DNA from: a virus
Lineage: Duplodnaviria > Caudoviricetes
IMG/VR virus record: IMGVR_UViG_3300035698_007626
Coordinates: 708 to 64,707 of that record
DNA: 64,000 bases
Direction: 5' to 3' (one strand)
In this document: positions 2,142 through 62,381 of the stretch, one piece after another
How the letters are laid out: every line of letters begins with the position of its first letter
How positions within the stretch are numbered: the first letter of the stretch is position 1
Translations under genes and position numbers: made by a program
Notes under the pieces: model-generated
Databases searched by the model: none
Seen by the model: the letters and a program-made list of their open reading frames with translations, nothing else
Told to the model about the DNA's origin: nothing

Positions 2142-3005
2142 TCATTCGTCGGGGTCGTCAGGTATCCACGCAACCGCATCATCTTCATAAGGAGAAGAAG
2201 CAGTAATTTCAAGAACCTGCCTAGTACGTGCGCTCAACGATCCTCCGACCCTCGGCTGCAAGGTTCTGGCGCCTTCGCCAGCACTGGGCAGGTTGGGGCC
2301 TCGGGACACCACATCCTGCGCCGGGGACGCTAGCCGCCGCCCTTGGAAAATACTATCCGGGTGGGCCGGAGAGATCCGCTCAGTCACATATCTGTCTGGC
2401 AGGCTTTCTCCACCCCGCGTCATGATGGTGTCTGCAATAGCCAATTGCTCCGAGATGCTTACTGCTGCCTGCATCGCACTTCCCTCTCCGTCTCTTGCAC
2501 CTTCTTGCGCTGTTACGTCAAACATCCGACTGCGTGCAGACATTAGAAGACGGGGCGCATTAGTTTCACGCAAGGCTCTAAGAACATTAAGTGAATCGTA
2601 CTGCCTAAGCTCTACTACGTTATAGCGCCACTGTGGATTAAAGAAAATGTCAACATACCGCACGTCCTCGGTTCTTTGTAAGAAGGTGTGCATTGCTTTT
2701 ACCCAGCGCCGCCACGAAGGAGGGCACTCATCTGACCAACTATGCGCCCTATCCCACACGCAATATGCCGCCAGATATGCCATGAACGAACCTGTCCACC
2801 CATTGGCTAAAGACATCTCATGGTTAAAGGGTGTAAAATCCGTCACCCAATTGATTAACTCGCATGCCTGTCCATCATCATAATCTCCGAACCTCGGGCT
2901 CCGAACTTCGCCTTCCTCCTCAGGATCAAATGTATTGATGGTCCGGGTACCTTGAGTGTCACTTATCTCCGGGGTCGGTGGGATTGGGGGGCGGGTCCGC
3001 GGCAT
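2142..3005 (-). CDS. Hypothetical protein (start uncertain)
   Basis: 287-aa ORF co-oriented in the operon; no recognisable motif. Confidence 0.5.
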   Translation of the reverse strand: MPRTRPPIPPTPEISDTQGTRTINTFDPEEEGEVRSPRFGDYDDGQACELINWVTDFTPFNHEMSLANGWTGSFMAYLAAYCVWDRAHSWSDECPPSWRRWVKAMHTFLQRTEDVRYVDIFFNPQWRYNVVELRQYDSLNVLRALRETNAPRLLMSARSRMFDVTAQEGARDGEGSAMQAAVSISEQLAIADTIMTRGGESLPDRYVTERISPAHPDSIFQGRRLASPAQDVVSRGPNLPSAGEGARTLQPRVGGSLSARTRQVLEITASSPYEDDAVAWIPDDPDE

Positions 3006-3906
3006 CTGCTGTCTCCAAAGTTGCGTGTTGCTTAATAGAAAAATCTCGATCTAACCAATAGCTGCGCCGACTAGGTGCCAGTGCGCAAATCTGCTGAAAC
3101 TGGCAGCCGCCGTAAGAGCCACAACTATTATAATTATGAGGCCAGTGGTCTGCCTTGGCGCACTGGTCTGCCCAATCAAGGAACATCTTAGCATCGCTGA
3201 GCCATTCCTCAATACGCGGTTCGTCTACATTAAATAGGCGGCGCACAAAGCGGGTGTAGTTGACGCCGGTGCTGATACCCTCAATCAAGACACCCTTAAC
3301 CGGCATCCCGATGATGTGGCGGGTCGCCCAAGTATAGGCAGCAATCTGCACATCAGGCTCGTAGTAGGACCAATACCGGTCATTGAGTGCCGACTTGGTA
3401 GTCTTGGTGTCCACCACGTACAAATCTTTATTGTATATAGCGAGCTTATCAATGCGCCCACTGAACCGCCAGTCCGTGCCAGGGAACGGGCACTCAAAGC
3501 GCGCCTCCAAGGCGGGCGTCCCATCTGGCAGGCTGGCCACCTCTATAGTGTCATAGTTGTATTCCTCGCAGCGCCAGATCAGGGCGCGCAGGGCGGTCTG
3601 CAAGTTGCGAGCGTTGTCGGTGCTAGCGTTCAGCGTTTCGCCGTATTCAAGACAGACGGCCCGGCACGCATCCCGCAGCGCAATCTCTTTATCAATGCCC
3701 GCGTGCGCGGCACCATCTAAAATCTCGCAGCCGTGATGCACAGCGGTGCCCCAGTAGGTGGCGGGGCTGCGCACATTACTACGGTACCCCAGCAAATTCT
3801 CCAGCTGGTACTTCTGGGGGCACGCCATAAAGGTTTTAAGAGAGGAGGCGTCCCAGACTTGCTGGGCACCCTCCACATATTTATCAAATATGAACTCACT
3901 CATCAA
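2959..3906 (-). CDS. PD-(D/E)XK exonuclease, Cas4/RecB-like
   Basis: SSLKTFMACPQKY, GTAVH, GRIDKL...VVDTKT, QIAAY, C-terminal Cys cluster (C...C...C). Confidence 0.85.
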   Translation of the reverse strand: MMSEFIFDKYVEGAQQVWDASSLKTFMACPQKYQLENLLGYRSNVRSPATYWGTAVHHGCEILDGAAHAGIDKEIALRDACRAVCLEYGETLNASTDNARNLQTALRALIWRCEEYNYDTIEVASLPDGTPALEARFECPFPGTDWRFSGRIDKLAIYNKDLYVVDTKTTKSALNDRYWSYYEPDVQIAAYTWATRHIIGMPVKGVLIEGISTGVNYTRFVRRLFNVDEPRIEEWLSDAKMFLDWADQCAKADHWPHNYNSCGSYGGCQFQQICALAPSRRSYWLDRDFSIKQHATLETADAADPPPNPTDPGDK

Positions 3907-6545: not shown

Positions 6546-6975
6546 TCCAAGTCTCCCATCGTTCTTTCATTTGTTGGATCTTTTCCTCAGGGCACCCGTG
6601 CGCCCCTCGAAGGTAGCATTCACGAACGTCCCACGACCACCAATTAGAGGGCATCACCTCACGAACAGGCACCCCCAGCCCAGAGGCTATGTTGCGCACG
6701 GCCCCCCACTCAGCCCGGCGGCTGTGGGTGTTGTCCACAATAATGCTGACGCCAGCCTCAAGGCACCGGCGCGCCGCCTTACGCACGGCCCTGTGGGCGG
6801 GCTTCAGCTGTGTAAAGTCGAACAGGTATTCAGAGGTGGCTGTGTCAATGAACCAGTCGTCCGCTGACAGGATCACGTACTGTTCCGCCACCTCGCGGCC
6901 CGTCTGCTGAAGCCGCCGCGCCTTATGTGATTTGCCGGAGCCGGGCAGGCCCCGCATGATAATGCACTCAGTCAT
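6529..6975 (-). CDS. AAA_33-type P-loop kinase (polynucleotide kinase / N4BP2-like)
   Basis: IMRGLPGSGKS, SADDWF, IIVDNT, HGCP..KI..MKERW; AGGAG RBS before ATG at 6975. Confidence 0.85.
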   Translation of the reverse strand: MTECIIMRGLPGSGKSHKARRLQQTGREVAEQYVILSADDWFIDTATSEYLFDFTQLKPAHRAVRKAARRCLEAGVSIIVDNTHSRRAEWGAVRNIASGLGVPVREVMPSNWWSWDVRECYLRGAHGCPEEKIQQMKERWETWNVLTD

Positions 6976-6989
6976 CGCTTGATCTCCTG

Positions 6990-7181
6990 TTACCGATAGA
7001 GCACCGTATAATCCCGATTGCACCGATTGGAGCGGGGGCCGGGAACCGCCTGCTTCCCCCTCATTTGTAAGCTATTGTTATTATTATATATTTTTTTTAT
7101 ATAAGGTTTATTATTAGAGAACCGCTTTCTGGACCACCCGCCAATCGGTGCTATCGGTAATATACGGTGCCCAATCGGTAA
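6990..7181. repeat. Imperfect ~41-bp inverted repeat of ACCGAT-like iterons flanking an AT-rich core; candidate replication origin
   Basis: Left arm 6990-7030 matches the reverse complement of 7141-7181; core ~7065-7120 is nearly all A/T. Confidence 0.7.
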
Positions 7182-7236
7182 ACGCCCCCGCTATGCTAAA
7201 GCCTCCAGCGCCGCAATACTCCCATGTCTAGGGTAT

Positions 7237-8001
7237 TTAGTCACGCACAGTCCGCCCCTTCGCAGCGCACAAAGCAGTATCAAGCGCGTGCTTCTCGCTA
7301 AATACCTGCTGCCGCGCCCAATACGTATAAGTTTCTTCCGCAGACACCAAGGTTGACGGTAGATGCACAACACCGTAAGCTTGCAGCGCCTGCCTGCTGT
7401 CGAAAGGAACTCGCACAATTGGAACGCGCACTTGCGGAGTCTCGCTGTAAGCCGTAAACCACAGCCCGTCGGAATTGTCGTCCTTTAAAACCTTAGGCCA
7501 AAGTCTTATCAAACTTTTATTAAAGTGATTATAACCGCAACAGGCGCGCCCTAGCATGTTGATGTATGATGTGGATGTCTCTGGAGCCGTTCGCAGAGAA
7601 GGCTGAGTATCCATGTGTGGTACAAGGTTGTCCTCTGAGGCAACTTCCCTGACTGGTTGCAGGTTCTTGTTAAACTGAGCCAAGTGGGGGCGCAGCAAAA
7701 GAATGCGTTCCGCCCTCGTGCTAGGGGAGCGTGGCTTGGTGTCAATTACTCCCTGCTCAAAGCTTGCCTCGATTAAAGCGCGCTCCAAAGAACTTAATAG
7801 GCTGATCTCATCTCCAGATACGGCCCAACCATATCTCGGGTGCCTGTAACAATGCGCATTGGTTACATACAGAGCGCCCTCATCGACACCCGTTATATTG
7901 TCGGTTTCATAGTCGTACACGACGCTCCTTGCAACGTTCAACTGTGTATAGAGAAGTTTACCGTTGTTCCTAGTGGGGCGTAGTACAGCCCATTTACTCA
8001 T
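7237..8001 (-). CDS. Hypothetical protein, paralog A of a tandem family
   Basis: Shares LYV.NA.CY.H...GWAV.G, RPHLA.FNK.L.PV, YIN..GR, LWP and R.AL.A.G with 7998-8753. Confidence 0.7.
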   Translation of the reverse strand: MSKWAVLRPTRNNGKLLYTQLNVARSVVYDYETDNITGVDEGALYVTNAHCYRHPRYGWAVSGDEISLLSSLERALIEASFEQGVIDTKPRSPSTRAERILLLRPHLAQFNKNLQPVREVASEDNLVPHMDTQPSLRTAPETSTSYINMLGRACCGYNHFNKSLIRLWPKVLKDDNSDGLWFTAYSETPQVRVPIVRVPFDSRQALQAYGVVHLPSTLVSAEETYTYWARQQVFSEKHALDTALCAAKGRTVRD

Positions 8002-15818: not shown

Positions 15819-16625
15819 TCATGAGCGAAATGCCTCTGCTTCCTTGCGTGTGATGAAAAAGTGTATGCCGTGTGAGCATTCGTTCCAGCTATTTTCGTCC
15901 CACTTGTTCGCGCGGACTGTCTCGCCCACCTTGTATTCTGTGGTGGGGCCGTATTTGGTCGTGATACCAACGGCCTCACCGATAGTTTCCAGTACCTCAG
16001 CATATTCCGCCCGGCACTTTCGCCCTGTTGCGTTGGACCGTTTGGCGTCGGCTGGGATGCGAAGTTTGACCAGCACGCCGCCCGCCTTTTTCCATCCGAT
16101 TAAGTCTCCGTCAGGAAGGATTGACGTACGCGCTTGTGCGAGTGAGGCACCCCGGGCACCCCGAAGGTAGGCACCCCGAAGGTCAGCACCCCGAAGGCTG
16201 GCACCTGTAAGGTTAGCGTCCCAGAGGCCAGCACCCCGAAGGTAGGCACCCCGAAGGTCAGCGTCCCGAAGGTCAGCACCTGTAAGGTTGACACCCCGAA
16301 GGTAGGCACCTGTAAGGTTAGCGTCCCGAAGGTCAGCACTCCGAAGGTCGGCACCCTGAAGGTAGGCACCCCGAAGGTTGACACCCAGAAGGTAGGCAAC
16401 TGTAAGATTAGCGTCCCGAAGGCCGGCACCCCAGAGGCCGGCACCTGTAAGGTCGGCACCTGTAAGGTTAGCACCTGTAAGGTCGGCACCCCGAAGGTAG
16501 GCAGCGCGTACGGCCCGCCCTAGGATAACACTGCGGGAGGCTTCTTTGTATTTCGCGTCCACCTTGGCGATGTATAATGTCTCGTCGTTAATTGATTTGA
16601 TTGTAAACTTGAATGTCTCAGTCAT
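15819..16625 (-). CDS. Pentapeptide repeat protein with DUF5758-like C-terminal domain
   Basis: A(D/N/Y)L(R/T)G repeats; C-terminal GWKK...KCRAEYAEV...NECSHGIHFF. Confidence 0.9.
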   Translation of the reverse strand: MTETFKFTIKSINDETLYIAKVDAKYKEASRSVILGRAVRAAYLRGADLTGANLTGADLTGAGLWGAGLRDANLTVAYLLGVNLRGAYLQGADLRSADLRDANLTGAYLRGVNLTGADLRDADLRGAYLRGAGLWDANLTGASLRGADLRGAYLRGARGASLAQARTSILPDGDLIGWKKAGGVLVKLRIPADAKRSNATGRKCRAEYAEVLETIGEAVGITTKYGPTTEYKVGETVRANKWDENSWNECSHGIHFFITRKEAEAFRS

Positions 16626-16932: not shown

Positions 16933-17472
16933 TTAGGCGGAGGCCGCAGCAGGCTGCTGACCGTCACCATTCTCGGCATCGGTATCATCAGCACTGTCTG
17001 CGCTGTGGAAGTCCTCGGCGGAACCAATCACAGTCTCGCCCGCTTCAAGCACGGCGAGGAAGTATGTGAGGTCCTTGACGACCGTAGTGCGTGGGGAGTC
17101 GTCCTTGTAGGCAGGAGCGAACTCGCCATTGTCGCCAGCCTCATCCGGTGCGCTGCGGATGAAATCGGCCAGCTTGCGGGCATTGGTGGGGTGCAGGATG
17201 CGTGCCCACTGGGAAGCGTAGAGGGAGACAGGCCACCGCTGGAGGCCGTACACGTTGACGGTGCCCTTGCCAGTGTTGCCCTTCTCGTCGATCTTGGTGC
17301 GGCTCTTCACGGAGCAAGTGAAGTTGCTACCGTTGCCGCCAGAGGCAAGCTGCCCCTGAAGCTTCTGGATGACGCCATCCTTGGCCGTGTTCTCGGCGGC
17401 AAGCTGCGCCATCTGGTGTTGGAGAACACCCATCTGCTCTTCGAGGGTCAGCTTCTTTTCATCTTTCGCCAT
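16933..17472 (-). CDS. Conserved hypothetical protein (KG.V.VYGL.R.PV.LY..QW family)
   Basis: AAGGAG RBS before ATG at 17472; N-terminal coiled coil, conserved core, acidic tail. Confidence 0.7.
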   Translation of the reverse strand: MAKDEKKLTLEEQMGVLQHQMAQLAAENTAKDGVIQKLQGQLASGGNGSNFTCSVKSRTKIDEKGNTGKGTVNVYGLQRWPVSLYASQWARILHPTNARKLADFIRSAPDEAGDNGEFAPAYKDDSPRTTVVKDLTYFLAVLEAGETVIGSAEDFHSADSADDTDAENGDGQQPAAASA

Positions 17473-17565
17473 TTTGTGGCACTCCTTTGCCCGAAATAGG
17501 GCATCTTGGTCACTATGACCTAAAGAATACGCAAAGGGGAGAGCCGAGTTCACCTGACTCGATCT

Positions 17566-17598
<33 letters not shown>

Positions 17599-17749
17599 GT
17601 TCGCTTCACGTTCCGCTGTATATCTATAAGCGTGATTAACTATTCAGGGGGCTAAATCTTCATGACAACCTCTTATATGTTTACGCCTTAATAGGGCATC
17701 GACAGCCCGTGACAACGCACCCTATAGGATGCGATGCCAAAGGCTGGCG

Positions 17750-17944
17750 CTAGCGGCGCGGCAGCTTGTGGGTGGTCTTGATGAACTTGGCGGCAGCGCG
17801 ACCACTGAGGGTTACCTTGCCGGTATCCAGTATCTCGCGTGCTTCCTTATGGCTGGCGTCAGGAAATGCCTTGAGGACGCCGCTACGCAGGGCTTCGAAA
17901 TCCTTGCGGGGCATCTTGCGAGGAACGCTGAACCGTACATCCAT
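17750..17944 (-). CDS. Hypothetical basic protein
   Basis: 64-aa ORF, AGGAG RBS. Confidence 0.55.
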   Translation of the reverse strand: MDVRFSVPRKMPRKDFEALRSGVLKAFPDASHKEAREILDTGKVTLSGRAAAKFIKTTHKLPRR

Positions 17945-18149
17945 GGCGAGTCTCCTAGACTATTAGGTTGAGTAGCATGACGACAGCAACTGTGATGCCG
18001 AGCCAGAATTGGCTCACCACAGGCCGTTACTCACGCTGGGATTGGGAAGGCGCTGGGGCTTGTCCCGCTTGGACATCTTCTGCCCAGCTACCAGATCGCT
18101 GCCACCGCGCACCCACGCTCGGTACACTCGGTGGGTCATAGGGCGGCTC

Positions 18150-18443
18150 TTAGGGCGCCAAGGCTTCGCAGGCGGCGTTGACTGTCGGGGCATAGGTCAG
18201 GGACTCCAGCGAGCGGTTGAGGGTGTGCAAGGGGACACCGTGGCCGGTGGCCTTGGCAGCAAGCAGGCCGCCGTAGAGACCGCGGGCCATACGCGACCCT
18301 CCATGAGTAGCAGGGTTGGCCTTGTGTGCCCCGATGGCAATAGCTGCCCAGCGAGGGTTGCGCCCATTGAGGCGAAAGGGGGAGTTCTTGGCTTTCTCTG
18401 CTCCCCTCGCGCCGCGCTGGCTCTTGTTATTTCCATCAGCCAC
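18150..18443 (-). CDS. Hypothetical protein
   Basis: 97-aa ORF, GAGGAG RBS before GTG. Confidence 0.5.
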   Translation of the reverse strand: MADGNNKSQRGARGAEKAKNSPFRLNGRNPRWAAIAIGAHKANPATHGGSRMARGLYGGLLAAKATGHGVPLHTLNRSLESLTYAPTVNAACEALAP

Positions 18444-18529
18444 AGACTTTCTCCTCTAGTGGAGTTATAAGGACATACTTGATGAAGGCCGCTAGGCGTT
18501 CTTTGCCAGTCATGAGATGCTCCTTGGTT

Positions 18530-19240
18530 GGGCCTTCCTTGTGGATACGCTAAGCGAGCTACGATCCATGCCGGGGTTTGCTTATGAGGGGACAGGTCGT
18601 GTGTGCTTAACATACCCACAAGGAAGGAGACTCCCCACCGATACTGAGTAGCTCGGAAAGAAGCCTCACAACCATAGGTCGGTCCATATCGTTTTCTTCT
18701 CTTGGCCTTGCCAACTCCTTCGCTGCGTACTTCCCACCCGCCACGCTTTGCGTTCGCTTTTAACAGCTACTTGCTCCGGCCTTGACCATGGGTCAAAGCG
18801 TATGCACACTAAAAGGGGACCTAGTTGGCTCACCTCACCCTACTCTCGTAAGGGTTACGTCACTCCACCCTGCCAGCTCTCGCACCGGGGTATGGGAGTG
18901 ATTTCGCGTACTGTATCCTTGCAAATCTGAACACCCAGCTGGTCTTGCCAGCTAGACTAGTATGGTGCCTTCGCAACCTATACTCACAGACGGAGCGGAT
19001 ATCTCCGTATCACGGGATGGCAGCGGCCAATGGCTTGCTTCCACCGTGGGCTGATATGACCAGCCAACCACCTAGGATCATCGAGGATATCATCCTAAGC
19101 TCGCTGCAACTTCCAACCGGAACGACGCCGGGCTGGACAATTACAGCTATAGACCTTACAGTCTGACCGCTCTAGTTGCTTGGCTGGTCCCCTTAGGGAC
19201 TTGGTGCCATTGTGCAGGGAGCGATCGCCGCCTCGCCGTG
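18530..19240 (-). ncRNA. Candidate large structured non-coding RNA (~710 nt)
   Basis: No credible ORF; more than 10 hairpins, 23-bp 3' stem with G-U pairs, GAGA tetraloops; begins just downstream of the promoter at 19247-19275. Confidence 0.6.
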
Positions 19241-19246
19241 TTCGAA

Positions 19247-19275
19247 ATATGGGGCCGGGGGGCGGCGATTTCAAG
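19247..19275 (-). promoter_or_regulatory. sigma32 (RpoH)-type promoter, leftward
   Basis: CTTGAAA-N14-CCCCATAT. Confidence 0.7.
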
Positions 19276-19517
19276 GGCGATTTCTTGCGTTGTTTGGTCG
19301 ATTTCAGCAACAATCGGGCCGTCGAGCCGCCGCCCGGCGCAAGAATGTTTCAAAATCAGGCCCGGCCCGTGTCGGCGAGAGCGCGCATTGCCGTCAGTCA
19401 AAGGGGGCGAGGGACGCCCGGAGCTAGGTTGCCAACCTGTTGTCGGTATTCGTACAGGCAAGTAGGCGCGTGGCGCGATGCCAATTGCGACGCCAGTCCC
19501 GGTAATAGGGGGCGGGC

Positions 19518-19546
19518 CTTGACAGCGCCGGGTCCGCCCCCCATAT
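19518..19546 (+). promoter_or_regulatory. sigma32-type promoter, rightward
   Basis: CTTGAC-N15-CCCCATAT followed by GCCGGAATAATCCGGC hairpin. Confidence 0.6.
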
Positions 19547-19604
19547 GGTCCAGTGCCGCCGGAATAATCCGGCCGGTCTAGGTCAGCCAAGTAATGAGGA
19601 TACC

Positions 19605-19997
19605 ATGAGTAAATCACATAGCACGCAGTTTTCCGACGCCACCTTTGCAGGTACAGGCTGGTTGATTATAGGGAACAAGGGTTACTTCAACCAACATACC
19701 AGTGAGTGGACGCACCACGACGTGGCTGGTTGTGTCATCCATCAAAAGGCCATCGCCGCTTGCTTGGCAGGTACCCTGCGCAATCTGGACGGGGAAGGCG
19801 GAAGTAGTATCCATCTGTGCAAGGTGCCGCTATGGTATGCTTCCACCGTCTTGGCCTACATTGCCGCACCTAATAAGCGAGGGCGGCTGGTTACTACCTG
19901 CCCTAGTGAGGCACAAGTATTCCTTGATCCGCAGATAGCGCAACTTGCATCGAGCCTGTACCTTGAGGATAAGGATCAGGTGGATCAGGGTATTTAG
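19605..19997 (+). CDS. Hypothetical protein
   Basis: GAGGA RBS before ATG at 19605, downstream of a promoter. Confidence 0.55.
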   Translation: MSKSHSTQFSDATFAGTGWLIIGNKGYFNQHTSEWTHHDVAGCVIHQKAIAACLAGTLRNLDGEGGSSIHLCKVPLWYASTVLAYIAAPNKRGRLVTTCPSEAQVFLDPQIAQLASSLYLEDKDQVDQGI

Positions 19998-20022
19998 ACC
20001 AACCCGTTGTAGGTAATCGCAG

Positions 20023-20055
20023 GGCCTAGGCTGGCCTAGGCTGGCCTAGGCTGGC
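20023..20055. repeat. Three tandem 10-bp repeats GGCCTAGGCT (each containing the palindrome GCCTAGGC)
   Basis: Seen directly. Confidence 0.9.
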
Positions 20056-20111
20056 AGGGAACAGGATTGAGGATGGAAAAGCTAGGATAATCAACGGGTT
20101 AGCGGCCCGCC

Positions 20112-20139
20112 CTTGACTGCAGGGGATGCGTCCCCATAT
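20112..20139 (+). promoter_or_regulatory. sigma32-type promoter, rightward
   Basis: CTTGAC-N14-CCCCATAT followed by GCCGGGATGATCCGGC hairpin. Confidence 0.6.
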
Positions 20140-20183
20140 GACACGGTGCCGGGATGATCCGGCAGTTAATCTTGGAGATAAAA

Positions 20184-20558
20184 ATGACTGGCATTACCCA
20201 AGCAATGATTGACGAAATACGCAAGGCCAACCCGACCACGGCGGACGCCATGCAAGTGACGTACGACAAGGCGGCCAAGGGCGGCGGCGGCAAGCTTTCC
20301 GTGGCGATTCCGGCTGCGACCAGCAAGGGGGAGCCCAGCAAGGGCACCTTGCAGTTTCGGGGGATGGGGCGCTATCCTACCTCGGTTTATTGGCAGCACT
20401 TGTTGAGCATCCTAAAGATGTGTTCGGACGGGACCGTGGCCGATGCCCTGGTAAAGGACGCGGCGAATGTGTCATGGGATAAGGAAAGCCCCAAGGGGCA
20501 GGGGGCGCTGCCACGCGAGGAGATTGTGGCCAAGCTTGAAGCTGCAATGGGCAAGTAG
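20184..20558 (+). CDS. Hypothetical protein, paralog of 16933-17472
   Basis: KGTLQFRGMGRYPTSVY matches KGTVNVYGLQRWPVSLY; GGAG RBS. Confidence 0.65.
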   Translation: MTGITQAMIDEIRKANPTTADAMQVTYDKAAKGGGGKLSVAIPAATSKGEPSKGTLQFRGMGRYPTSVYWQHLLSILKMCSDGTVADALVKDAANVSWDKESPKGQGALPREEIVAKLEAAMGK

Positions 20559-20941: not shown

Positions 20942-20971
20942 TTGCAATGCAACCCTGATTTTTTGTATAAT
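20942..20971 (+). promoter_or_regulatory. sigma70 promoter for terS (probably leaderless transcript)
   Basis: TTGCAA-N18-TATAAT, ATG 7 nt downstream, no SD. Confidence 0.65.
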
Positions 20972-20977
20972 ATACAT

Positions 20978-21454
20978 ATGGGAAAAAGTCACAAAGACCA
21001 AGAACTTACCGACAAAGAGAAAATGTTTACCCTTGAGTATATCAAGGACTTCAATGCCATGCGGTCGGCGGTGGCTGCCGGTTACACGCTGAACTATTCC
21101 AAGGCCAACTCCTACAAAATTCCGCGCCGGCCCCAAGTGCTGGCCGAGATCAATCGCTTGCAGGCCGAGCGCGTAAAGCAGACGGCCATGGACGCGGACG
21201 AGGTGGTGCGACGGCTCACCCGAATCGCCCAGAAGGCCGAGCATGAATCGCGCTACAACGACGCCATTCGGGCGCTCGAACTGATCGGCAAACATCTCCA
21301 GATGTTCACTGATCGCAGTGAGATCGAACTCACGTCCCGCAACCCCTACGCGAGCGGCAACGATGCCGAGGCGATGCTGCGCGACATTAAACACTTAACC
21401 AAGGTTCTGGGCGGCGGCAAGCGGCTCACGGACGATGAGGACACGCTCCATTGA
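20978..21454 (+). CDS. terS: Terminase small subunit
   Basis: LTDKEKMF..EYIKDFNA.RSA..AGY ... RALELIGKHL.MF (Terminase_2 pattern); directly upstream of terL. Confidence 0.9.
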   Translation: MGKSHKDQELTDKEKMFTLEYIKDFNAMRSAVAAGYTLNYSKANSYKIPRRPQVLAEINRLQAERVKQTAMDADEVVRRLTRIAQKAEHESRYNDAIRALELIGKHLQMFTDRSEIELTSRNPYASGNDAEAMLRDIKHLTKVLGGGKRLTDDEDTLH

Positions 21455-21599: not shown

Positions 21600-23207
21600 A
21601 TGAGTAACGAAGAAACGCTGATCGCCGAGGTCGTCACACAGGAGGATCGCGATGCGCTAACGCGGCTGGCTGTAAAGACGGCGCGCGAAGATCTGCTCGC
21701 CTTCATCCTGCTACTTAACCCCGGCTTCTCGGTGGCGCCCCACCATAGGCTGATTTGTGACAAGCTCATGTCCCTAGAAGCGGGTGAGTTGCGCCGGCTG
21801 ATGCTCTTCGTTGCGCCGCGTTCTTCGAAGTCACTCATCTCCTCAATCTATTACCCGGCGTGGCTGTTCGGCAAGCACGGCGACTGGCAGTTTCTGGGCG
21901 TGTCGCATAGCGCCACCCTCGCCACCAAGTTTGGGCGCACCGTTCGAGACATCATTCAGTCACGTCAATTCAAGGTAATCTTCCCAGAAGTCCACGTCAA
22001 CCCAGGCCAGAGCGCTAAGGACCATTGGTCAATCATTCTTGGCCCGCGCATCAAAGACGGATTGCCGGGCGGTGAATACCTAGCTGCCGGCGCGGGCCAG
22101 CCTATTGCGGGCCACGGCGCCCATCAAGGCATGATCGACGATCCCATCTCCGAGCAGGATGCGTGGAGTGAGGCCAAGCGCAACACAGTTAACGAATGGT
22201 ATCCCGGCGGTTTCCGCTCCCGACTTATGCCCGGTGGCCGGGTCGGCATTATTCAGACGCGCTGGCATGAGATGGACTTGAGCGGCTATTTATTGCGCCT
22301 ATCCAAGGAACAGCCTCTGGCGGATCAGTGGGAAGTTATTCGTATTCCCGTCCTCAATACGTCCGAGTCCACAAAACTCCTTAACAATGCGCGCGACAAA
22401 CTAATCGACCAAGGTTACCTCAAGCCCGATTACCCGGAATTGCAGCCCGGTGAATCTTTTTGGCCGGCTCCCAGCGAAACAGACAACGACTACCACTGGC
22501 CCACCAGCGAAGTGCTTGCGACAAAGCATTCCATGCCAGAGCATCAGTTCGATGCCATTTATATGCAGGTGCCCAGCTCCAAGGGGGGAAACATTTTGCG
22601 CGCGGCGGACTGGCAGAAGTGGGACATGGAAAAGCACAAGGTGCCGCCGGTTTGCGACTACATCATCCAATCGTGGGACACGGCGTTCTCCACCAAGGAG
22701 AGTGCGGATTTCAGTGCCTGCACAACGTGGGGCGTTTTCCAAGAGGAGGGCAAAGCCCATCTCGTGCTCCTCGGCGCCACCAAGGGCCGGTGGGCCTACC
22801 CCACACTGCGCCAGAATGTTATCGAAAAGTTTAACGAGCACCACCCTGATGTCATCATCATGGAAAAGAAAGCCAGCGGTCAGTCGTTGATTCAGGAGCT
22901 GTCGCTCACAGGCATTCCGATGTATCCTTTCACACCGGAGAAAGACAAGATTACGCGTGCCCATTTGGCCTCAGAGATTTTTGCCCAGAAACGCATCTGG
23001 TACCCGAGTGGGCGCCAGTGGGCACAGGACGTCATAGACGAATGTACGCGCTTCCCCGCAGACCGGCACGACGACTATGTCGATACCGTTAGTCAGGCTG
23101 TGATGTGGATGCGCTTCGGTGGTTGGGTGGATTCTGCCCGTGACCGCTTGCGTGACGTCGATGAATATGATACAATGTCTAGCACAAAAAGTAGGGTATA
23201 TTACTAA
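21600..23207 (+). CDS. terL: Terminase large subunit
   Basis: APRSSKS Walker A, IDDP Walker B, QTRWH..DL.G, nuclease SWDTAF and HDDYVD. Confidence 0.95.
   Translation: MSNEETLIAEVVTQEDRDALTRLAVKTAREDLLAFILLLNPGFSVAPHHRLICDKLMSLEAGELRRLMLFVAPRSSKSLISSIYYPAWLFGKHGDWQFLGVSHSATLATKFGRTVRDIIQSRQFKVIFPEVHVNPGQSAKDHWSIILGPRIKDGLPGGEYLAAGAGQPIAGHGAHQGMIDDPISEQDAWSEAKRNTVNEWYPGGFRSRLMPGGRVGIIQTRWHEMDLSGYLLRLSKEQPLADQWEVIRIPVLNTSESTKLLNNARDKLIDQGYLKPDYPELQPGESFWPAPSETDNDYHWPTSEVLATKHSMPEHQFDAIYMQVPSSKGGNILRAADWQKWDMEKHKVPPVCDYIIQSWDTAFSTKESADFSACTTWGVFQEEGKAHLVLLGATKGRWAYPTLRQNVIEKFNEHHPDVIIMEKKASGQSLIQELSLTGIPMYPFTPEKDKITRAHLASEIFAQKRIWYPSGRQWAQDVIDECTRFPADRHDDYVDTVSQAVMWMRFGGWVDSARDRLRDVDEYDTMSSTKSRVYY
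23148..23176 (+). promoter_or_regulatory. sigma70 promoter for the portal gene
   Basis: TTGCGT-N17-TACAAT with extended TG. Confidence 0.55.
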
Positions 23208-25612
23208 TGCCGCCGAGCAATTTTGAAGCGCCTCTCACGACACTGCCTGAAATCCCCGAGTCTGTCGATTCAGGCTTGGATGGCGAAGTAGAAGTAGAGG
23301 TCGATGTTCCTTTTGATCCGATGATGGAAATGGGGGAGCCGGACCCGTTATCCCCCCTCGCACAGCATGACGATAACCTTGCTGAGTTCTTGGACGAGAA
23401 CGATTTGCAGGGCGTTGCCGACGAGCTCATGGAGCTTTACGAAGATGACGTCAGTTCCCGCTCTGAGTGGGAGGCCATTGCCAAAGACGCCATCAATATG
23501 CTGGGCTTTTCCGTAGATGAGCGCTCGGAGCCCTTCGAGGGGGCCTGTGGGGCCACCCACCCCGTCCTTTCGCAGGCGGTTATCAAGTTTCAGGCCAAGG
23601 CTTTTAAGGAACTGTTCCCCAGCGGGGGGCCGGTTCGCACACAGATCATGGGTGTGCACAATCCTGAGCGCGAGCAGCAGGCCAAGCGTGTAAAAGACTA
23701 CATGAATTACCAGACGACGCACCAGATGCCGGAGTTTGGGCGCGAACTGGACAAGATGCTCTTCTACGTCGGCCTCTTTGGCTCGGCATTTAAGAAAACC
23801 TACTATGATGGCGCCCTCAATCGGCCCACATCGCGCGTGGTGCGGGCGGAAGATTTTGTAATTGACTACTGGGCCTCGGATTTGGAGACGGCGGAGCGCT
23901 ATACGCACCGTCAGATCCTCTCAACCAACGAAATTAAGCGCCATATGCTCAATGGTGTGTTTCGTGATATCGAATTAGAGGACCCGACGCCCCCCGAGGC
24001 GGACGGTGTGTCCGAAACGGTGGACGAATTGCAGGGGCGCTCCCGCAATTACACCCAAAATGACCAACATACCGTGCTGGAAATGCACGTCATGGCCGAA
24101 ATTCCCGGCGATGAGGAAATCAACGGCCTATTGAAGCCGTATATCGTTTCAATCCACGAAGATTCGGGCCACGTCCTAGCTATTCGGCGTAATTGGAAGG
24201 AAGACGACCCTTCAATGGAGAAGCGCCAGTACTTCGTCCATTACCAGATGATTCCCGGCCTCGGTTTCTACGGATATGGCTACCTCCATCTGATTGGCGG
24301 CCTTACCAAGACGGCCACCGCCAGTATGCGGCAGCTTATCGACGCAGGCACGCTAGCAAATCTACCCGGCGGCTTCAAAGCCCACGGCTTGCGCGTGCTG
24401 GCGCCCGATGATCCCATTCAGCCGGGCGAATGGCGCGATGTTAACGCTCCGGCGGGCGATCTGGCCAAGTCGCTGCTGCCCCTTCCCTATAAGGAGCCGT
24501 CGTCCACCTTATTCAATTTACTGCAATTTGTTGTAGAAACGGCCAAGGAGTTTGCGGACAGCACCGACCGTATTGTGGACGAGGCATCCAACTACGGGCC
24601 GGTGGGTACCACCATGGCGCTCATGGAACATTCTACCAAGATGTTCAGTGCCATTCACAAACGCCTGCATTCGGCGCAAGCCATTGAATTAAACCTGCTG
24701 GCGCAGATCAACTCTGAATATCTGCCAGAGCAGTATCCCTACGAGCAGGCAGGGCAGGCTCAGAATATTTTCCGTGAAGATTTCGATATGCGTAGTATCG
24801 ACGTCATTCCAGTCTCTGATCCTAACATGCCCACCGCTGCGCACCGGATCGCCAAGATCAATGCCATCATGTCCATTGCCGCTTCGGACCCGGCGGCCCA
24901 TGATATGAACGCGATCCGCCTAGATCTTTACCTTGCTATGGGTGTGGACCAGCCTGAGAAGTACTTAGCCAAGCCGCCTCAACCCATCAGCGCTGATCCC
25001 ATCACCGAGAACAGCTCGGCCATGGTGGGCAAGCAGGTGGCGGCCCAGCCTCACCAGAACCACGACGCGCACGTCACTGTACATGCCAGCGTCCTGAACA
25101 ACCCGGCCTACGCCGAGATGGTGGGCATGCGGCAGATTCTGCTGGCCCACATCAACGAGCATCTGTCGCACAAGTTCCGCATGGAGATCCTGCAGATGGC
25201 GGGCGATCCGCAGATGCAGCAGGCTGTCATGGCGGGCGATCCGCTCGATCCGCAGGTTGAGAACCAGATTGCCATCATGGCGGCTGATGCCAGCGACGCC
25301 CTGCTTGAACTGGATCGCGTCAAGAGTGAAATCCTCGCCGGCAATCAGGAAGATCCGGTCATCGAATTGCAGCGTAAGGAGATCGAGTTGCGCGAGATGA
25401 AGGTGCAGAACGACGCCCTTAAGATGGCGCTGGCGCACGAGATTGACAAGGATAAGCTGACCCTCGATAGGGATAAGCTCAAGCTGCAAGAAGCCGAGGT
25501 CATGATTGATGATGCCAACACGGACCTTGATCGAGAGGCCCGCATCCAAATAGAAGAAAATAAACTAGCAGCACAGAAAGTAAAGAATAATGAGCGACCA
25601 AGCTCTAGCTAA
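23207..25612 (+). CDS. Portal protein
   Basis: 801 aa after terL; PFEGACGATHP, GSAFKKTYYD, PGLGFYGYG, DVIPVSDPN, C-terminal coiled-coil barrel. Confidence 0.9.
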   Translation: MPPSNFEAPLTTLPEIPESVDSGLDGEVEVEVDVPFDPMMEMGEPDPLSPLAQHDDNLAEFLDENDLQGVADELMELYEDDVSSRSEWEAIAKDAINMLGFSVDERSEPFEGACGATHPVLSQAVIKFQAKAFKELFPSGGPVRTQIMGVHNPEREQQAKRVKDYMNYQTTHQMPEFGRELDKMLFYVGLFGSAFKKTYYDGALNRPTSRVVRAEDFVIDYWASDLETAERYTHRQILSTNEIKRHMLNGVFRDIELEDPTPPEADGVSETVDELQGRSRNYTQNDQHTVLEMHVMAEIPGDEEINGLLKPYIVSIHEDSGHVLAIRRNWKEDDPSMEKRQYFVHYQMIPGLGFYGYGYLHLIGGLTKTATASMRQLIDAGTLANLPGGFKAHGLRVLAPDDPIQPGEWRDVNAPAGDLAKSLLPLPYKEPSSTLFNLLQFVVETAKEFADSTDRIVDEASNYGPVGTTMALMEHSTKMFSAIHKRLHSAQAIELNLLAQINSEYLPEQYPYEQAGQAQNIFREDFDMRSIDVIPVSDPNMPTAAHRIAKINAIMSIAASDPAAHDMNAIRLDLYLAMGVDQPEKYLAKPPQPISADPITENSSAMVGKQVAAQPHQNHDAHVTVHASVLNNPAYAEMVGMRQILLAHINEHLSHKFRMEILQMAGDPQMQQAVMAGDPLDPQVENQIAIMAADASDALLELDRVKSEILAGNQEDPVIELQRKEIELREMKVQNDALKMALAHEIDKDKLTLDRDKLKLQEAEVMIDDANTDLDREARIQIEENKLAAQKVKNNERPSSS

Positions 25613-49289: not shown

Positions 49290-50108
49290 ATGAGTATTCT
49301 AGAACACCTTGACCAATTAGTCAGTGCCCCATCTAAGGGCATTGACTCGCTGCGTGAAGATGTTCTCGCCGGGCGGGCCACGGCGGGCGAATATGCTCAA
49401 GCTACCTTTAAGGAAGTGGATGGGGAGGGGTCTCAAGAAAATAGCTTCGCCGCCAACCCCGCCTCGCCCTTCCAAGATTTTTGGGGAATGCTTAGTAACA
49501 TGGTACAAGGACGTAAGCGCTACAACGACCAAGAGATGGCCGCGCTGGGCATCGACAACGACTTCATTGCCGACCAAGAAGGCTTTGAGACCACCGGCTA
49601 CGTGCCCAACTCAGGCAAGAGCGGCGTCACTGTGAGCAGCGGCGTCGATCTGGGCCAGATGAATGAGGCCGACCTGCGCGGGCTGGGACTTGCATCCCCC
49701 CTCGCGGACCGGCTCAAGCCCTACCTAGGGGCCAAGCGCGACGAGGCGCAGAGCGTCCTTCGACAGAAGCCCCTGCGTTTAACTGAGGGTGAGGCGTACG
49801 ACCTAGACCTTGCCTTCAAAAAGAAGCAGGCGCGCCAGCTTCGCAACAAGTGGGAGAAGTCTAGCGGGCAGTCATGGGACGACCTGACGCCCTACCAGCG
49901 CACGGTTCTTTACTCGGTCGCCCATCAATATGGCACCGACCTAGAGAGTGCCACTCCCAAGTTTTGGCAGGCCGCCACTACCGGCGACTGGCGCGGCGTG
50001 CTAAAAGAACTCCGAGATTTCGGAGACAGCTACAAGTCTAGGCGCAACCGGGAAGCGGACTATCTGCAAGCCGGGCTGCGCAACAATTCTAAAAGGATGT
50101 TTAAATAA
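49290..50108 (+). CDS. Pesticin-type (T4 lysozyme fold) muramidase / endolysin
   Basis: FI..QEG...GYVP..GKSGVT..SGVDLGQ, L.PYLG, QRTV..SV.HQYG, ELRDFGD.Y.SRRNREA.YL. Confidence 0.85.
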   Translation: MSILEHLDQLVSAPSKGIDSLREDVLAGRATAGEYAQATFKEVDGEGSQENSFAANPASPFQDFWGMLSNMVQGRKRYNDQEMAALGIDNDFIADQEGFETTGYVPNSGKSGVTVSSGVDLGQMNEADLRGLGLASPLADRLKPYLGAKRDEAQSVLRQKPLRLTEGEAYDLDLAFKKKQARQLRNKWEKSSGQSWDDLTPYQRTVLYSVAHQYGTDLESATPKFWQAATTGDWRGVLKELRDFGDSYKSRRNREADYLQAGLRNNSKRMFK

Positions 50109-57277: not shown

Positions 57278-57447
57278 GCATCCGCAAACTTAATATTGCT
57301 GCGGACCTGATAGGGTTCCGTCTCGTTGTTGTAAACGCTCTCGACCCAGACGCGGACGTGCCGGTAGCCTTTGCGGTGCCAGAAGTTTTCAATGCGCTCG
57401 GCCAACTCCCACGAAAGTCGGCGGCTGTACAAGTAATTATTCTTCAT
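57274..57447 (-). CDS. Small conserved protein (57 aa, below cutoff)
   Basis: MKNNYLYSRRLSWELAERIENFWHRKGY...YQVRSN; overlaps both neighbours. Confidence 0.55.
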   Translation of the reverse strand: MKNNYLYSRRLSWELAERIENFWHRKGYRHVRVWVESVYNNETEPYQVRSNIKFADA

Positions 57448-60987: not shown

Positions 60988-61224
60988 CTATTCTCCATCA
61001 AGAGTTTTCTCCACAAACCATGCCGGCAAGCAGGCAAGCTCACATACTAAGTAAAAGTTTTCGCCCCGGTCTTGGAGCCAAGTGCGGGCACGCTCTCCCG
61101 TCTTGTTGTCTTTGACGGTGTCCTCAACCATTTGGTCAAGGAACGCCCGCCACATACGCACCATAGCTGGGTCGTAGGACGACACCAACACAGGTATTTT
61201 GGCAAAGGTATTTGGTCTTTTCAC
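60988..61224 (-). CDS. Hypothetical protein
   Basis: MWRAFLDQ..ED...A..WL....F..VCELA.L motif of small phage proteins. Confidence 0.55.
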   Translation of the reverse strand: MKRPNTFAKIPVLVSSYDPAMVRMWRAFLDQMVEDTVKDNKTGERARTWLQDRGENFYLVCELACLPAWFVEKTLDGE

Positions 61225-62381
61225 TCGTCCCGCTTATTGCTTTTGTGGAACTTGACCATAGTTTTCCAAGGGCGCTCGTTCGTGTAGAGCGAAGCCAGCA
61301 TGCCTAAGTCTTTACGCATCTCCGGCTGGAGGGCGTGATGCATGTGCATCGTATCCTCCACGTTGCCCCGCACATAGATCCCCATGATCCGGGCCAGCCA
61401 TGTAATATCATATGTGCAATTCTGCGCCAGCTTGGGAATGGTGGGGTCTTCTAGAATTTTCTTTACCCACCCCCAAGCCACCGCCTCACTTTCGGCACTC
61501 GACCAGTAGCTGCCGCTGTCCATGTTCTTATCACAGAACGGAATGACGAACGACACGTTGTCGTTGGGCGAGAAGCCAATACAAGTAATTTGCGAAACCA
61601 TGTCCGTCTCGATGTCGAATGACAGGGGTGTGGTGCTGCCTTGCATAGGCTCGACCATCTCGTTGTAGAACTTCTCGATGTCGGCAAGTTGGGGTTCTAT
61701 CCACACTTCGCGTTCGATGCGCTTAATGGTGCGCGTGTTGCTCTCGGCCTGCGCCTTGATAAGATCGGCAATGAATACAGGTCGCCCGCTCCAGCCTCGC
61801 ACGACTGCGTCCGGGTGGAGGGCGGGCACTACCTTCCATTGCTTCGAGGGGTGGAACCAATCATTGGTGTAGATGGTGTGGCCTCTGAATTTAGAGATGC
61901 CTTCTTCACCAGTGAGAGCCCAGAGCGCGACTCCGCCTAGAGCGATAATTACATGAGGATCAAAACGAGTAATTTCCTCACGCAGTCGATCCAGTGCATC
62001 CTCGCGCTCGGGCTCCACGTAGCCTAACTTGGACAGCGGCCACCGTGGTTTCCACCCCTCGAACTGTTTAACTTGTGTGCGCTTAACGAAGAAGCGCCCT
62101 AGGTCGTCGCCCGCTGGCTTGTATTCAAATACGTTTGTCAGCAGGCAATCTTCGCGCTTGATGTCGGCGCGGCGTAAACATTCATTTAACAACTCGCCGC
62201 CCGACCCGGCGAACGGGTGTCCATTCAAAACCTCGTCGGCGCCGGGTGCCTCACCAACTATGGCGATCTTGCCATCGTCCCTTGTGGGCCAGACGGCAGG
62301 CACCGGGCGCTTTACTGCATCTTCTCTACCCTTAGAAATAATTTGCCGCATAATATTTGTCGCCCATTTTAATTGCTTCAT
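61221..62381 (-). CDS. Uracil-DNA glycosylase (family 4-like) domain fused to the N-terminal part of a DEDDy 3'-5' exonuclease; N-terminal half of a split SPO1-type PolA
   Basis: IVGEAPG..E...G.PF.G.GG.LL, TNV, LHP; then ExoI SFDIET, ExoII QN..YD, DTM...H. Confidence 0.85.
   Translation of the reverse strand: MKQLKWATNIMRQIISKGREDAVKRPVPAVWPTRDDGKIAIVGEAPGADEVLNGHPFAGSGGELLNECLRRADIKREDCLLTNVFEYKPAGDDLGRFFVKRTQVKQFEGWKPRWPLSKLGYVEPEREDALDRLREEITRFDPHVIIALGGVALWALTGEEGISKFRGHTIYTNDWFHPSKQWKVVPALHPDAVVRGWSGRPVFIADLIKAQAESNTRTIKRIEREVWIEPQLADIEKFYNEMVEPMQGSTTPLSFDIETDMVSQITCIGFSPNDNVSFVIPFCDKNMDSGSYWSSAESEAVAWGWVKKILEDPTIPKLAQNCTYDITWLARIMGIYVRGNVEDTMHMHHALQPEMRKDLGMLASLYTNERPWKTMVKFHKSNKRDE

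What the first reader, a model, noticed from the sequence alone, without database searches (positions are those of the whole stretch)
18530..19240. Candidate ~710-nt highly structured non-coding RNA heading the leftward transcript
Seen: about 700 nt with no credible ORF in an otherwise gene-packed genome, starting a few nt after a consensus CTTGAAA-N14-CCCCATAT promoter. Read on the minus strand it is almost all helices: GUCCC-UAAG-GGGAC, UAGGAU/AUCCUA, GGCUG/CAGCC, ACGGAG/CUCCGU, AGCUGG/CCAGCU, UCACUCC/GGAGUGA enclosing a GC-GAGA-GC hairpin, CCCU-UAC-GAGA-GUA-GGG, UUGACC/GGUCAA, and a 23-bp 3' stem (18533-18555 with 18605-18627). That stem has three G-U pairs that would be A-C mismatches on the plus strand, which favours a minus-strand RNA. 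It also has GNRA loops, repeated AGUA (E-loop-like) motifs and alternative pairings (AAGGGGACC with GGUCCCCUU ~370 nt away; GAGCUAC with two GUAGCU copies). Known: phages carry large structured RNAs of unclear function (GOLLD, ROOL) and antiterminator RNAs (HK022 put). I recognise no tRNA, tmRNA, RNase P or group I/II intron core. Inference: a new or diverged large phage RNA acting as scaffold, protein sponge or antiterminator.
Basis: partly seen in the sequence, partly recalled or inferred. Interest (0 to 1): 0.85.

Follow-up and report, generated by a model that had tools for sequence, protein, structure and literature searches.

The report
Orphan structured leader RNA in phage
A salt-lake phage has a roughly 730-base stretch without genes, sitting behind a strong promoter, that is predicted to fold unusually tightly as RNA, but no relative could be found to show that the fold matters.

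Summary
Window 18514-19240 (minus strand) is the only long stretch of this 64.7-kb phage genome without genes. It starts about 7 nt after a promoter that matches the published sigma-32 consensus exactly. It runs without a terminator into a ribosome-binding site, a 25-codon ORF and a conserved 97-aa basic protein.

The minus strand folds 35 kcal/mol better than shuffles (z -4.9, 0 of 100 shuffles as good); the plus strand does not (z -1.4). The 23-bp stem with three G-U pairs is real. Rfam 15 gives no match, so this is not GOLLD, ROOL or any other curated family.

The interpretation could not be tested. No homologue of the RNA turned up in any collection I could reach, so covariation is unavailable. 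The nearest reachable phages (TerL 58% identical or less) carry unrelated AT-rich operator DNA at the same spot. The predicted fold is no better defined than those of shuffles, and two other places in the genome fold more strikingly.

Best reading (about 0.5): a long structured 5' leader of the leftward replication operon, with a hairpin of RNase III substrate size just before the first ribosome-binding site. A new free-standing large RNA stays possible (about 0.15).

The parts
19247..19275 (-). Leftward promoter P1: CTTGAAA, 14-nt spacer, CCCCATAT. Predicted transcript start about 19239-19242.
   Evidence: It matches the sigma-32 consensus CTTGAAA-[N11/16]-CCCCAT printed in a table of PMC545781. 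The sigma-70-type scan also lists it at 9 of 12.
19264..19305 (-). Three direct repeats GAAATCG[C/A]C over and upstream of the -35 box; possible regulator sites.
   Evidence: The word with 1 mismatch or fewer is only mildly enriched genome-wide (27 against 18.6 expected), but three copies cluster here.
18514..19240 (-). Untranslated, ORF-free leader RNA of about 727 nt.
   Evidence: Fold z -4.9 on the minus strand against -1.4 on the plus strand. G 29.8% exceeds C 25.2% on the RNA strand, while the neighbouring leftward genes have C about equal to G.
19009..19240 (-). Domain 1: closed multi-helix domain. The 5' end pairs with nt 228-232, and the domain holds seven hairpins including GUCCC-UAAG-GGGAC.
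   Evidence: closing helices have probability 0.94-0.95; z -4.62 on minus (0 of 200 shuffles), -1.75 on plus; an alternative long-range 18-position helix (19172-19189 with 19058-19075) costs only 3.2 kcal/mol more, so the fold is not unique.
18773..18996 (-). Domain 2: central multi-branch domain with two hairpins capped by GAGA loops.
   Evidence: closing helix probability is only 0.54; z -3.3 on minus and -2.86 on plus, so little strand asymmetry.
18640..18772 (-). Domain 3: G-rich, weakly structured linker.
   Evidence: z -1.24 (22 of 200 shuffles as low). C/G ratio 0.43-0.48 in this stretch.
18530..18635 (-). Domain 4: 23-bp stem (18605-18627 with 18533-18555; 3 G-U pairs) capped by a 49-nt structured loop. 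Candidate RNase III-type processing or stabilising hairpin.
   Evidence: probability 0.99; z -6.5 on minus, -3.1 on plus.
18436..18525 (-). Ribosome-binding site AAGGAG (18520-18525), 6-nt spacer, then a 25-codon ORF (18436-18513) whose stop overlaps the GTG start of the next gene.
   Evidence: read directly from the sequence.
18150..18443 (-). First sizeable gene of the operon: a 97-aa basic protein (pI 11.0) of a small conserved family of unknown function.
   Evidence: 19 proteins at E <= 0.001 among 1.84 billion representatives, best 55% identity; alignment with a conserved N-terminal PFRLNG block; pI. No Pfam or PHROG family.
19518..19546 (+). Rightward promoter P2 of the same type, mirror-image to P1 (30-nt arms, 73% complementary).
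20112..20139 (+). Rightward promoter P3 of the same type.

Best explanation
The stretch is the long untranslated 5' leader of the phage's leftward operon, which carries replication, nucleotide-metabolism and accessory genes. Host RNA polymerase starts at about 19240 from a sigma-32-type promoter. It transcribes about 727 nt of G-rich, tightly folding RNA and continues without termination into a ribosome-binding site, a 25-codon ORF and a translationally coupled 97-aa basic protein.

Shown: the promoter match, the lack of ORFs, the lack of a terminator, the strand-specific excess of folding energy, and the reality of the downstream gene.

Inferred:
- The structure and the G-over-C bias keep a long untranslated RNA from being cut or terminated, because Rho needs C-rich unstructured RNA.
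- The 23-bp duplex that ends 7 nt before the ribosome-binding site is a double-strand-specific (RNase III-type) processing or stabilising element. It would set the 5' end of the mRNA and could release the upstream 600-700 nt as a separate RNA.

This layout resembles the lambda N leader, where a highly structured, RNase III-sensitive leader lies between the early promoter and the first small basic gene.
For: - P1 is an exact match to the published consensus and one of three such promoters in the control region.
- No other promoter-like site lies on the minus strand between 19246 and 17668, and no terminator-like site lies on that strand in 17500-20500. The downstream genes therefore depend on P1, and the leader must be transcribed with them.
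- The region is non-coding by ORF lists, alternative codes and codon-position GC.
- Fold z is -4.9 on minus and -1.4 on plus.
- By domain, D1 scores -4.6 on minus and -1.75 on plus, and D4 scores -6.5 on minus and -3.1 on plus.
- The 5' end is closed into a helix with probability 0.95.
- G exceeds C on the RNA strand, unlike the adjacent coding sequence.
- The 23-bp stem has 3 G-U pairs that would be A-C mismatches on the other strand.
- The 97-aa ORF is a real conserved gene, so the overlapping 140-aa ORF that would run into the stem is spurious.
- The lambda parallel comes from passages of PMC5725501. nutL lies about 200 bp upstream of N, the intervening leader is 'highly structured', and the paper's reference list has a paper on RNase III modulating N translation repression.
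Against: - No homologue was found, so there is no covariation and no evidence that selection keeps the fold.
- The ensemble is no better defined than that of shuffles.
- D1 has a near-isoenergetic alternative fold.
- D2 shows little strand asymmetry and D3 no signal.
- Domain borders were taken from the minus-strand fold, which favours that strand.
- The region's 300-nt windows rank only 12th and 18th of 1276 in the genome.
- The closest reachable phages hold unrelated AT-rich DNA at this position, packed with TGTCGCA words in both orientations, so the locus is not conserved as an RNA across the clade.
- Three G-U pairs on one strand carry modest weight: about 1 in 8 if the mismatches arose by transitions (my estimate).
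- RNase III cleavage, the transcript start and the transcript itself are all unobserved.
Confidence: 0.5

Rival explanations
1. A free-standing, trans-acting large structured RNA of a new class, comparable in size to ROOL and GOLLD. It would be cut out of the primary transcript at the 23-bp stem and act as a scaffold, sponge or assembly of its own.
For: The size (610-700 nt) and the two closed multi-helix domains with GNRA-type loops. The strand-specific fold excess. A long duplex at its 3' edge that could serve as a processing site. No Rfam family matches. Large ornate RNAs are known and form RNA-only assemblies (abstract of PMC12286853 in the listing); that some are phage-borne is recalled.
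Against: There is no terminator and no independent 3' end signal. No homologue exists in any collection searched, whereas the known ornate classes are recurrent families. No tRNA genes lie nearby. The ensemble is not unusually well defined. Nothing shows processing.
Confidence: 0.15
2. A fast-evolving control-region spacer with no function as RNA structure. On this reading the excess folding energy comes from a few inverted repeats, such as the 23-bp one, that arose as DNA-level sites or by chance.
For: Related phages also have 0.5-0.9-kb ORF-free DNA at this position, but of unrelated sequence and clearly DNA-level character: TGTCGCA 9 times in L027 against 0.47 expected, in both orientations, 7 of them within 2647-3153. 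D4 alone supplies about 21 of the 35 kcal/mol excess. Entropy and diversity are no better than shuffles. Other parts of the genome fold more strikingly.
Against: D1-D3 without the stem still score z -3.85 on minus against -1.47 on plus. The region has no iterons or repeated operator words. The G-over-C bias is strand-specific. A compact phage genome keeping 727 nt of transcribed non-coding sequence argues for some use.
Confidence: 0.25
3. A DNA-level element such as a replication origin or a packaging site next to the terminase genes.
For: It lies in the divergent control region about 1.7 kb from the small terminase gene. It contains inverted repeats.
Against: There is no AT-rich core and there are no iterons. 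The plus strand does not fold better than shuffles. A far better origin-like structure lies elsewhere: 59-nt inverted repeats around an AT-rich core at 6990-7181.
Confidence: 0.05
4. It encodes several very small proteins.
For: Minus-strand ORFs of 27-55 codons exist in the region.
Against: None has a ribosome-binding site like the AAGGAG before the 25-codon ORF (read). Codon-position GC is flat. Peptides from 97 related loci give no significant tblastn match.
Confidence: 0.05

Closest known systems
Leader of the phage lambda N gene (pL transcript: nutL, structured RNase III-sensitive leader, then N)
   Same: An early leftward promoter is followed by a long, highly structured untranslated leader. 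A long duplex lies just before the ribosome-binding site of a small, very basic first protein (97 aa, pI 11 here). The lambda facts come from passages of PMC5725501; the size and charge of N are recalled.
   Different: This leader is about 727 nt, against about 200. There is no boxA match and no second nut-like hairpin for a rightward operon. The 97-aa protein has no detectable relation to any named family. Cleavage is untested.
GOLLD and ROOL large ornate RNAs
   Same: Size range of several hundred nt, many helices, a phage setting and unknown function.
   Different: There is no match to any Rfam 15 model; that Rfam holds both families is recalled. No tRNA genes lie nearby. It sits inside an mRNA leader rather than as its own gene. 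It is an orphan, not a recurrent family.
RNase III processing hairpins in early transcripts of T7-like phages (recalled)
   Same: A duplex of about two helical turns in a polycistronic early transcript, just upstream of a ribosome-binding site.
   Different: Only one such stem is present. The other local inverted repeats of 15 nt or more are not placed between genes of this operon in a regular way.
HK022 put antiterminator RNAs (recalled)
   Same: Structured RNA directly downstream of an early promoter.
   Different: put elements are short twin stem-loops (recalled), whereas this is ten times longer.

Membership tests
Any curated RNA family (Rfam 15, including GOLLD, ROOL, OLE, HEARO, group I/II introns, RNase P, tmRNA, 6S) | Score at or above the family's covariance-model threshold | tested here: not met
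   0 matches at gathering score in the whole 64-kb window; at E <= 10 over 18300-19500 there is only a chance narK match (15.4 bits against a threshold of 43.2), and it lies outside the transcript.
GOLLD / ROOL | Frequent neighbourhood of tRNA genes in phages and prophages (recalled feature) | tested here: not met
   no tRNA or tmRNA gene in the window.
Lambdoid nut site / Nus-factor boxA | boxA consensus GYTCTTTAANA (gamma-proteobacterial consensus printed in PMC5725501) | tested here: not met
   105 matches with 2 mismatches or fewer in the window, none on the minus strand within 18514-19240. The consensus may differ in the unknown host.
Lambdoid nut site / Nus-factor boxA | The same boxB-type hairpin present in both early operons | tested here: not met
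   the 14-nt 5' hairpin has no second copy. The four other matches at 3 mismatches equal chance expectation (5 found, 5.1 expected).
Sigma-32 (RpoH) type promoter | CTTGAAA-[N11/16]-CCCCAT (table in PMC545781) | tested here: met
   exact match with a 14-nt spacer at 19249-19275 (0.07 expected). P2 and P3 differ only in the last two letters of the -35 word. Which sigma factor reads them cannot be tested here. Housekeeping promoters of some Alphaproteobacteria look similar (recalled).
RNase III substrate | Continuous double-stranded RNA of about two helical turns (about 20 bp or more; recalled) | tested here: met
   23 consecutive pairs (20 Watson-Crick and 3 G-U), pair probability 0.99.
RNase III substrate | Cleavage by the enzyme | not testable with these tools
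   No RNA data: no listed sequencing run is on record as RNA.
Structured functional RNA in general | Compensatory base changes among homologues | not testable with these tools
   No homologue was found. Three near-identical metagenome assemblies show 0 differences inside 18530-19240, against 7 substitution sites and 1 insertion in the 4001 nt laid.

The most novel reading that the evidence does not exclude
The first 600-700 nt of the leftward transcript are released at the 23-bp stem as a stable, free-standing ornate RNA. This would be a new class of large phage RNA with no Rfam relative. It would be made from a heat-shock-type promoter at the very start of infection, and it would act in trans, for example by titrating a host RNA-binding factor or nuclease, or by self-assembling as GOLLD and ROOL do. 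The small basic 97-aa protein encoded right behind it, which belongs to a conserved family found only in metagenomes, could be its partner.
Probability: 0.15. Interest if true: 0.75.

Novelty: new variant of a known kind. Interest (0 to 1): 0.4.

Why it matters
If the fold is functional, this would be one of the longest structured leaders known in a phage. It would also be a candidate new large RNA from a poorly sampled group: salt-lake relatives of the HTVC023P-type pelagiphages, with TerL 37% identical or less to any GenBank phage.

It also offers a tractable case of how a phage keeps a long untranslated early transcript alive. That all three promoters of the control region fit the heat-shock sigma consensus hints that early transcription may ride on the host stress response.

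As it stands, though, this is a single-sequence prediction. Its value is as a lead that becomes testable once the contigs of the few known relatives are fetched.

Tried and rejected
Homologue searches, all empty:
- blastn (distant mode) against 50,697 GenBank phages.
- nhmmer and blastn against 12 and then 97 related loci.
- Four exact 19-20-mers from D1, D2 (two) and D4 against IMG/VR.
- BLAST against 5 and then 401 genomes of the class of G001. G001 holds a locus titled Ochrobactrum, so I infer the class is Alphaproteobacteria.
- Single-sequence covariance models of D2 (R1) and D1 (R2) over 94 sources and 830 kb: self only at E <= 10.
- R2 over 151 genomes.

Protein anchors:
- TerL alone gave 35% identity or less in IMG/VR (12 loci) and 27% or less in JGI metagenomes (5 loci).
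- A TerL alignment gave 58% or less in IMG/VR (80 loci kept of 580) and 36% or less in GTDB genomes (80 kept of 548).
- The 97-aa and 206-aa neighbours gave no locus in IMG/VR.
- The 206-aa protein has no homologue but itself.
- The 97-aa family is absent from GenBank phages and PLSDB plasmids, from 401 sampled genomes and from 38 IMG/VR records of relatives.
- hhalign of the family against the first leftward protein of L027 found nothing.

Other checks:
- Decayed-gene test: 8370 peptides from related loci against the region gave nothing beyond chance.
- Alternative genetic codes opened no frame.
- nut-like reading: no boxA and no second hairpin.
- Expression: no RNA holder is listed among 3 runs, all salt-lake metagenome DNA kept as contigs.
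- The Atlas search of the 97-aa protein gave no usable hit, and its stored model has pLDDT 0.44.

Full report
**Setting.** The window is bases 708-64707 of a 64,707-bp IMG/VR virus record rated 100% complete; the query stretch occurs once in it. Genes run rightward from about 19.6 to 51 kb: small terminase 20942-21454, large terminase 21600-23207, portal 23207-25612. They run leftward from 18.5 kb to the window start and again from 64 to 51.9 kb. The leftward set includes:
- family A DNA polymerase with an intein
- UDG-exonuclease
- dCMP deaminase
- ribonucleotide reductase
- a DUF3987 primase-like protein
- an AAA_24 ATPase
- a PD-(D/E)XK nuclease
- an ATP-grasp protein
- amidoligase-like and GGACT proteins
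- two pentapeptide-repeat proteins

The finding lies in the divergent control region between the two arms. The nearest GenBank phages are HTVC023P-type pelagiphages, with TerL 34-37% identical. Near-identical DNA is held by three salt-lake metagenome runs.

**The observation.** It is confirmed.
- No ORF longer than 73 aa lies inside 18530-19240.
- Recoding TGA or TAG opens nothing across it.
- GC by codon position is flat.
- The only other gap of 250 nt or more without a 70-aa ORF consists of three small ORFs and is unstructured.
- The promoter CTTGAAA-N14-CCCCATAT is at 19247-19275.
- With two rightward copies it makes 3 matches to a pattern expected 0.03 times, and these account for all 3 CCCCATAT words in 64 kb.
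- The word matches the sigma-32 consensus CTTGAAA-[N11/16]-CCCCAT printed in a table of PMC545781 (I read only the passages found).

**Is it more than chance?** On folding energy, yes. The minus strand folds at -287.4 kcal/mol against -252.4 +/- 7.1 for 100 dinucleotide shuffles (z -4.9, none as low). The plus strand gives z -1.4 (tool values -4.71 and -0.89 with 20 shuffles).

| Domain | Coordinates | z, minus strand | z, plus strand |
|---|---|---|---|
| D1 | 19009-19240 | -4.62 | -1.75 |
| D2 | 18773-18996 | -3.3 | -2.86 |
| D3 | 18640-18772 | -1.24 | -0.52 |
| D4 | 18530-18635 | -6.5 | -3.1 |
| D1-D3 (no stem) | 18640-19240 | -3.85 | -1.47 |

The borders were taken from the minus-strand fold, which favours that strand. 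The RNA strand is G-rich (29.8% G, 25.2% C), unlike the adjacent leftward genes.

Against this:
- Positional entropy and ensemble diversity are ordinary (z about -1).
- D1 has an alternative long-range helix only 3.2 kcal/mol above the MFE.
- In a composition-corrected scan of 1276 windows of 300 nt, the region's best windows rank 12th and 18th.
- Two other places fold more strikingly: 61780-62120 inside a gene (z -6.4) and an origin-like inverted repeat at 6880-7260 (z -5.2).

**What it is.**
- No terminator-like site follows on the minus strand, and no other promoter-like site precedes the first leftward genes.
- The stem ends 7 nt before an AAGGAG ribosome-binding site. A 25-codon ORF follows, and its stop overlaps the GTG start of a 97-aa ORF.
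- That ORF is real. An exhaustive HMMER search found 19 proteins at E <= 0.001, mostly 87-129 aa, sharing a conserved basic N-terminal block. Its pI is 11.0.
- The stretch is therefore, at the least, the 727-nt 5' leader of the leftward operon.
- Pfam scans of 30 larger ORFs found no reverse transcriptase, RNA-guided nuclease or phage RNA polymerase that would suggest a dedicated RNA partner.

**Known families.** Rfam 15 gives nothing at gathering score in the window, and nothing but a chance narK hit at E <= 10. There are no tRNA or tmRNA genes. I tested a lambda-nut-like reading and did not confirm it:
- The boxA consensus printed in PMC5725501 has no match with 2 mismatches or fewer on the RNA strand of the leader.
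- The 5' hairpin has no second copy.

The architectural likeness to the lambda N leader remains: an early promoter, a highly structured RNase III-modulated leader, then a small basic first gene (passages of PMC5725501). This is a statement about how it may work, not about membership.

**Homologues.** The RNA has no detectable relative in any of these:
- GenBank phages.
- 97 loci around related terminases from IMG/VR and JGI metagenomes, by nhmmer and blastn.
- 830 kb of those loci, by covariance models of D1 and D2.
- IMG/VR, by four exact 19-20-mers.
- 401 sampled genomes by BLAST and 151 by model R2.

Relatives do exist. A TerL at 76% identity and many at 50-57% appear in the protein collection, as do the members of the 97-aa family. 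The closest ones sit only in ENA, Logan or NCBI metagenome contigs that no open tool could fetch.

The reachable relatives (TerL 58% or less) also have a long ORF-free stretch between the leftward genes and the small terminase. In them it is AT-rich (23-40% GC), unrelated in sequence, and in L027 packed with TGTCGCA words in both orientations, which is a DNA-operator signature. The locus is therefore a large, fast-changing control region in this clade, and the structured G-rich leader is peculiar to this lineage.

Three near-identical metagenome assemblies differ from the window at 7 substitution sites and 1 insertion in 4001 nt, none of them inside the leader. About 1.2 would be expected there, so this says nothing.

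**Verdict.** The features are real. The most economical reading is a long structured leader with a processing or stabilising duplex before the first ribosome-binding site (about 0.5). A free-standing new large RNA (about 0.15) and an incidental fold in a fast-evolving spacer (about 0.25) both stay open. With one sequence and no expression data the claim rests on thermodynamic prediction alone, so I score interest at 0.4. The lead becomes testable as soon as the contigs named under next steps are fetched.

**Limits.** These statements are recalled, not tested: Rfam's holding of GOLLD and ROOL, T7 RNase III sites, HK022 put, the size of lambda N, and alphaproteobacterial housekeeping promoters.

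Noticed in passing
window 19247-19275 (-), 19518-19546 (+), 20112-20139 (+); weaker 49309-49332 (+): All three promoters of the divergent control region fit the heat-shock sigma-32 consensus (CTTGA[A/C]N, 13-14 nt spacer, CCCCATAT). P1 and P2 are mirror images. A phage whose early promoters use RpoH would be unusual, but housekeeping promoters of some Alphaproteobacteria look alike (recalled) and the host is unknown.
   Followed up: partly
window 6880-7260, arms 6990-7048 and 7123-7181: 59-nt inverted repeats (80% complementary) flank an AT-rich core between two leftward genes. Fold z is -5.2. It looks like a replication origin or a bidirectional terminator.
   Followed up: partly
window 61780-62120 (-): The strongest folding outlier of the genome (z -6.4, 0 of 100 shuffles as low) lies inside the UDG-exonuclease gene 61221-62381. 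Its function is unknown.
   Followed up: partly
window 16933-17553 (-) and 20154-20558 (+): Two paralogous proteins of unknown function (26% identity, E 3e-08) sit on either side of the control region, one in each divergent arm. The 206-aa copy has no homologue but itself among 5.8 billion proteins.
   Followed up: partly
window 18150-18443 (-): The 97-aa basic protein (pI 11) defines a small family with a conserved N-terminal block containing PFRLNG. It was seen only in metagenome contigs (19 representatives) and has no Pfam or PHROG family.
   Followed up: partly
window 57437-59977 (-): The family A DNA polymerase gene carries an intein with a LAGLIDADG endonuclease domain (Pfam matches to Intein_splicing and LAGLIDADG_3).
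   Followed up: no
window 15819-16625 (-) and 63480-63971 (-): Two pentapeptide-repeat proteins, one also with DUF5758. Proteins of this kind can mimic DNA (recalled).
   Followed up: no
L027 2599-3502 (also L088, L033); L041 5112-6015: Related marine phages have 0.9-kb ORF-free, strongly self-complementary regions between the leftward genes and the small terminase. z is -7.7 and -5.2 on the two strands in L027, and -5.8 and -8.3 in L041. In L027 the word TGTCGCA occurs 9 times against 0.47 expected, in both orientations, which suggests an operator or iteron array.
   Followed up: partly
window 19264-19305 (-): Three direct repeats GAAATCG[C/A]C, spaced 12 and 21 nt apart, lie over and upstream of the -35 box of P1. 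An inverted repeat (19505-19518 with 19531-19544) brackets the -35 box of P2. Both are likely regulator sites.
   Followed up: no
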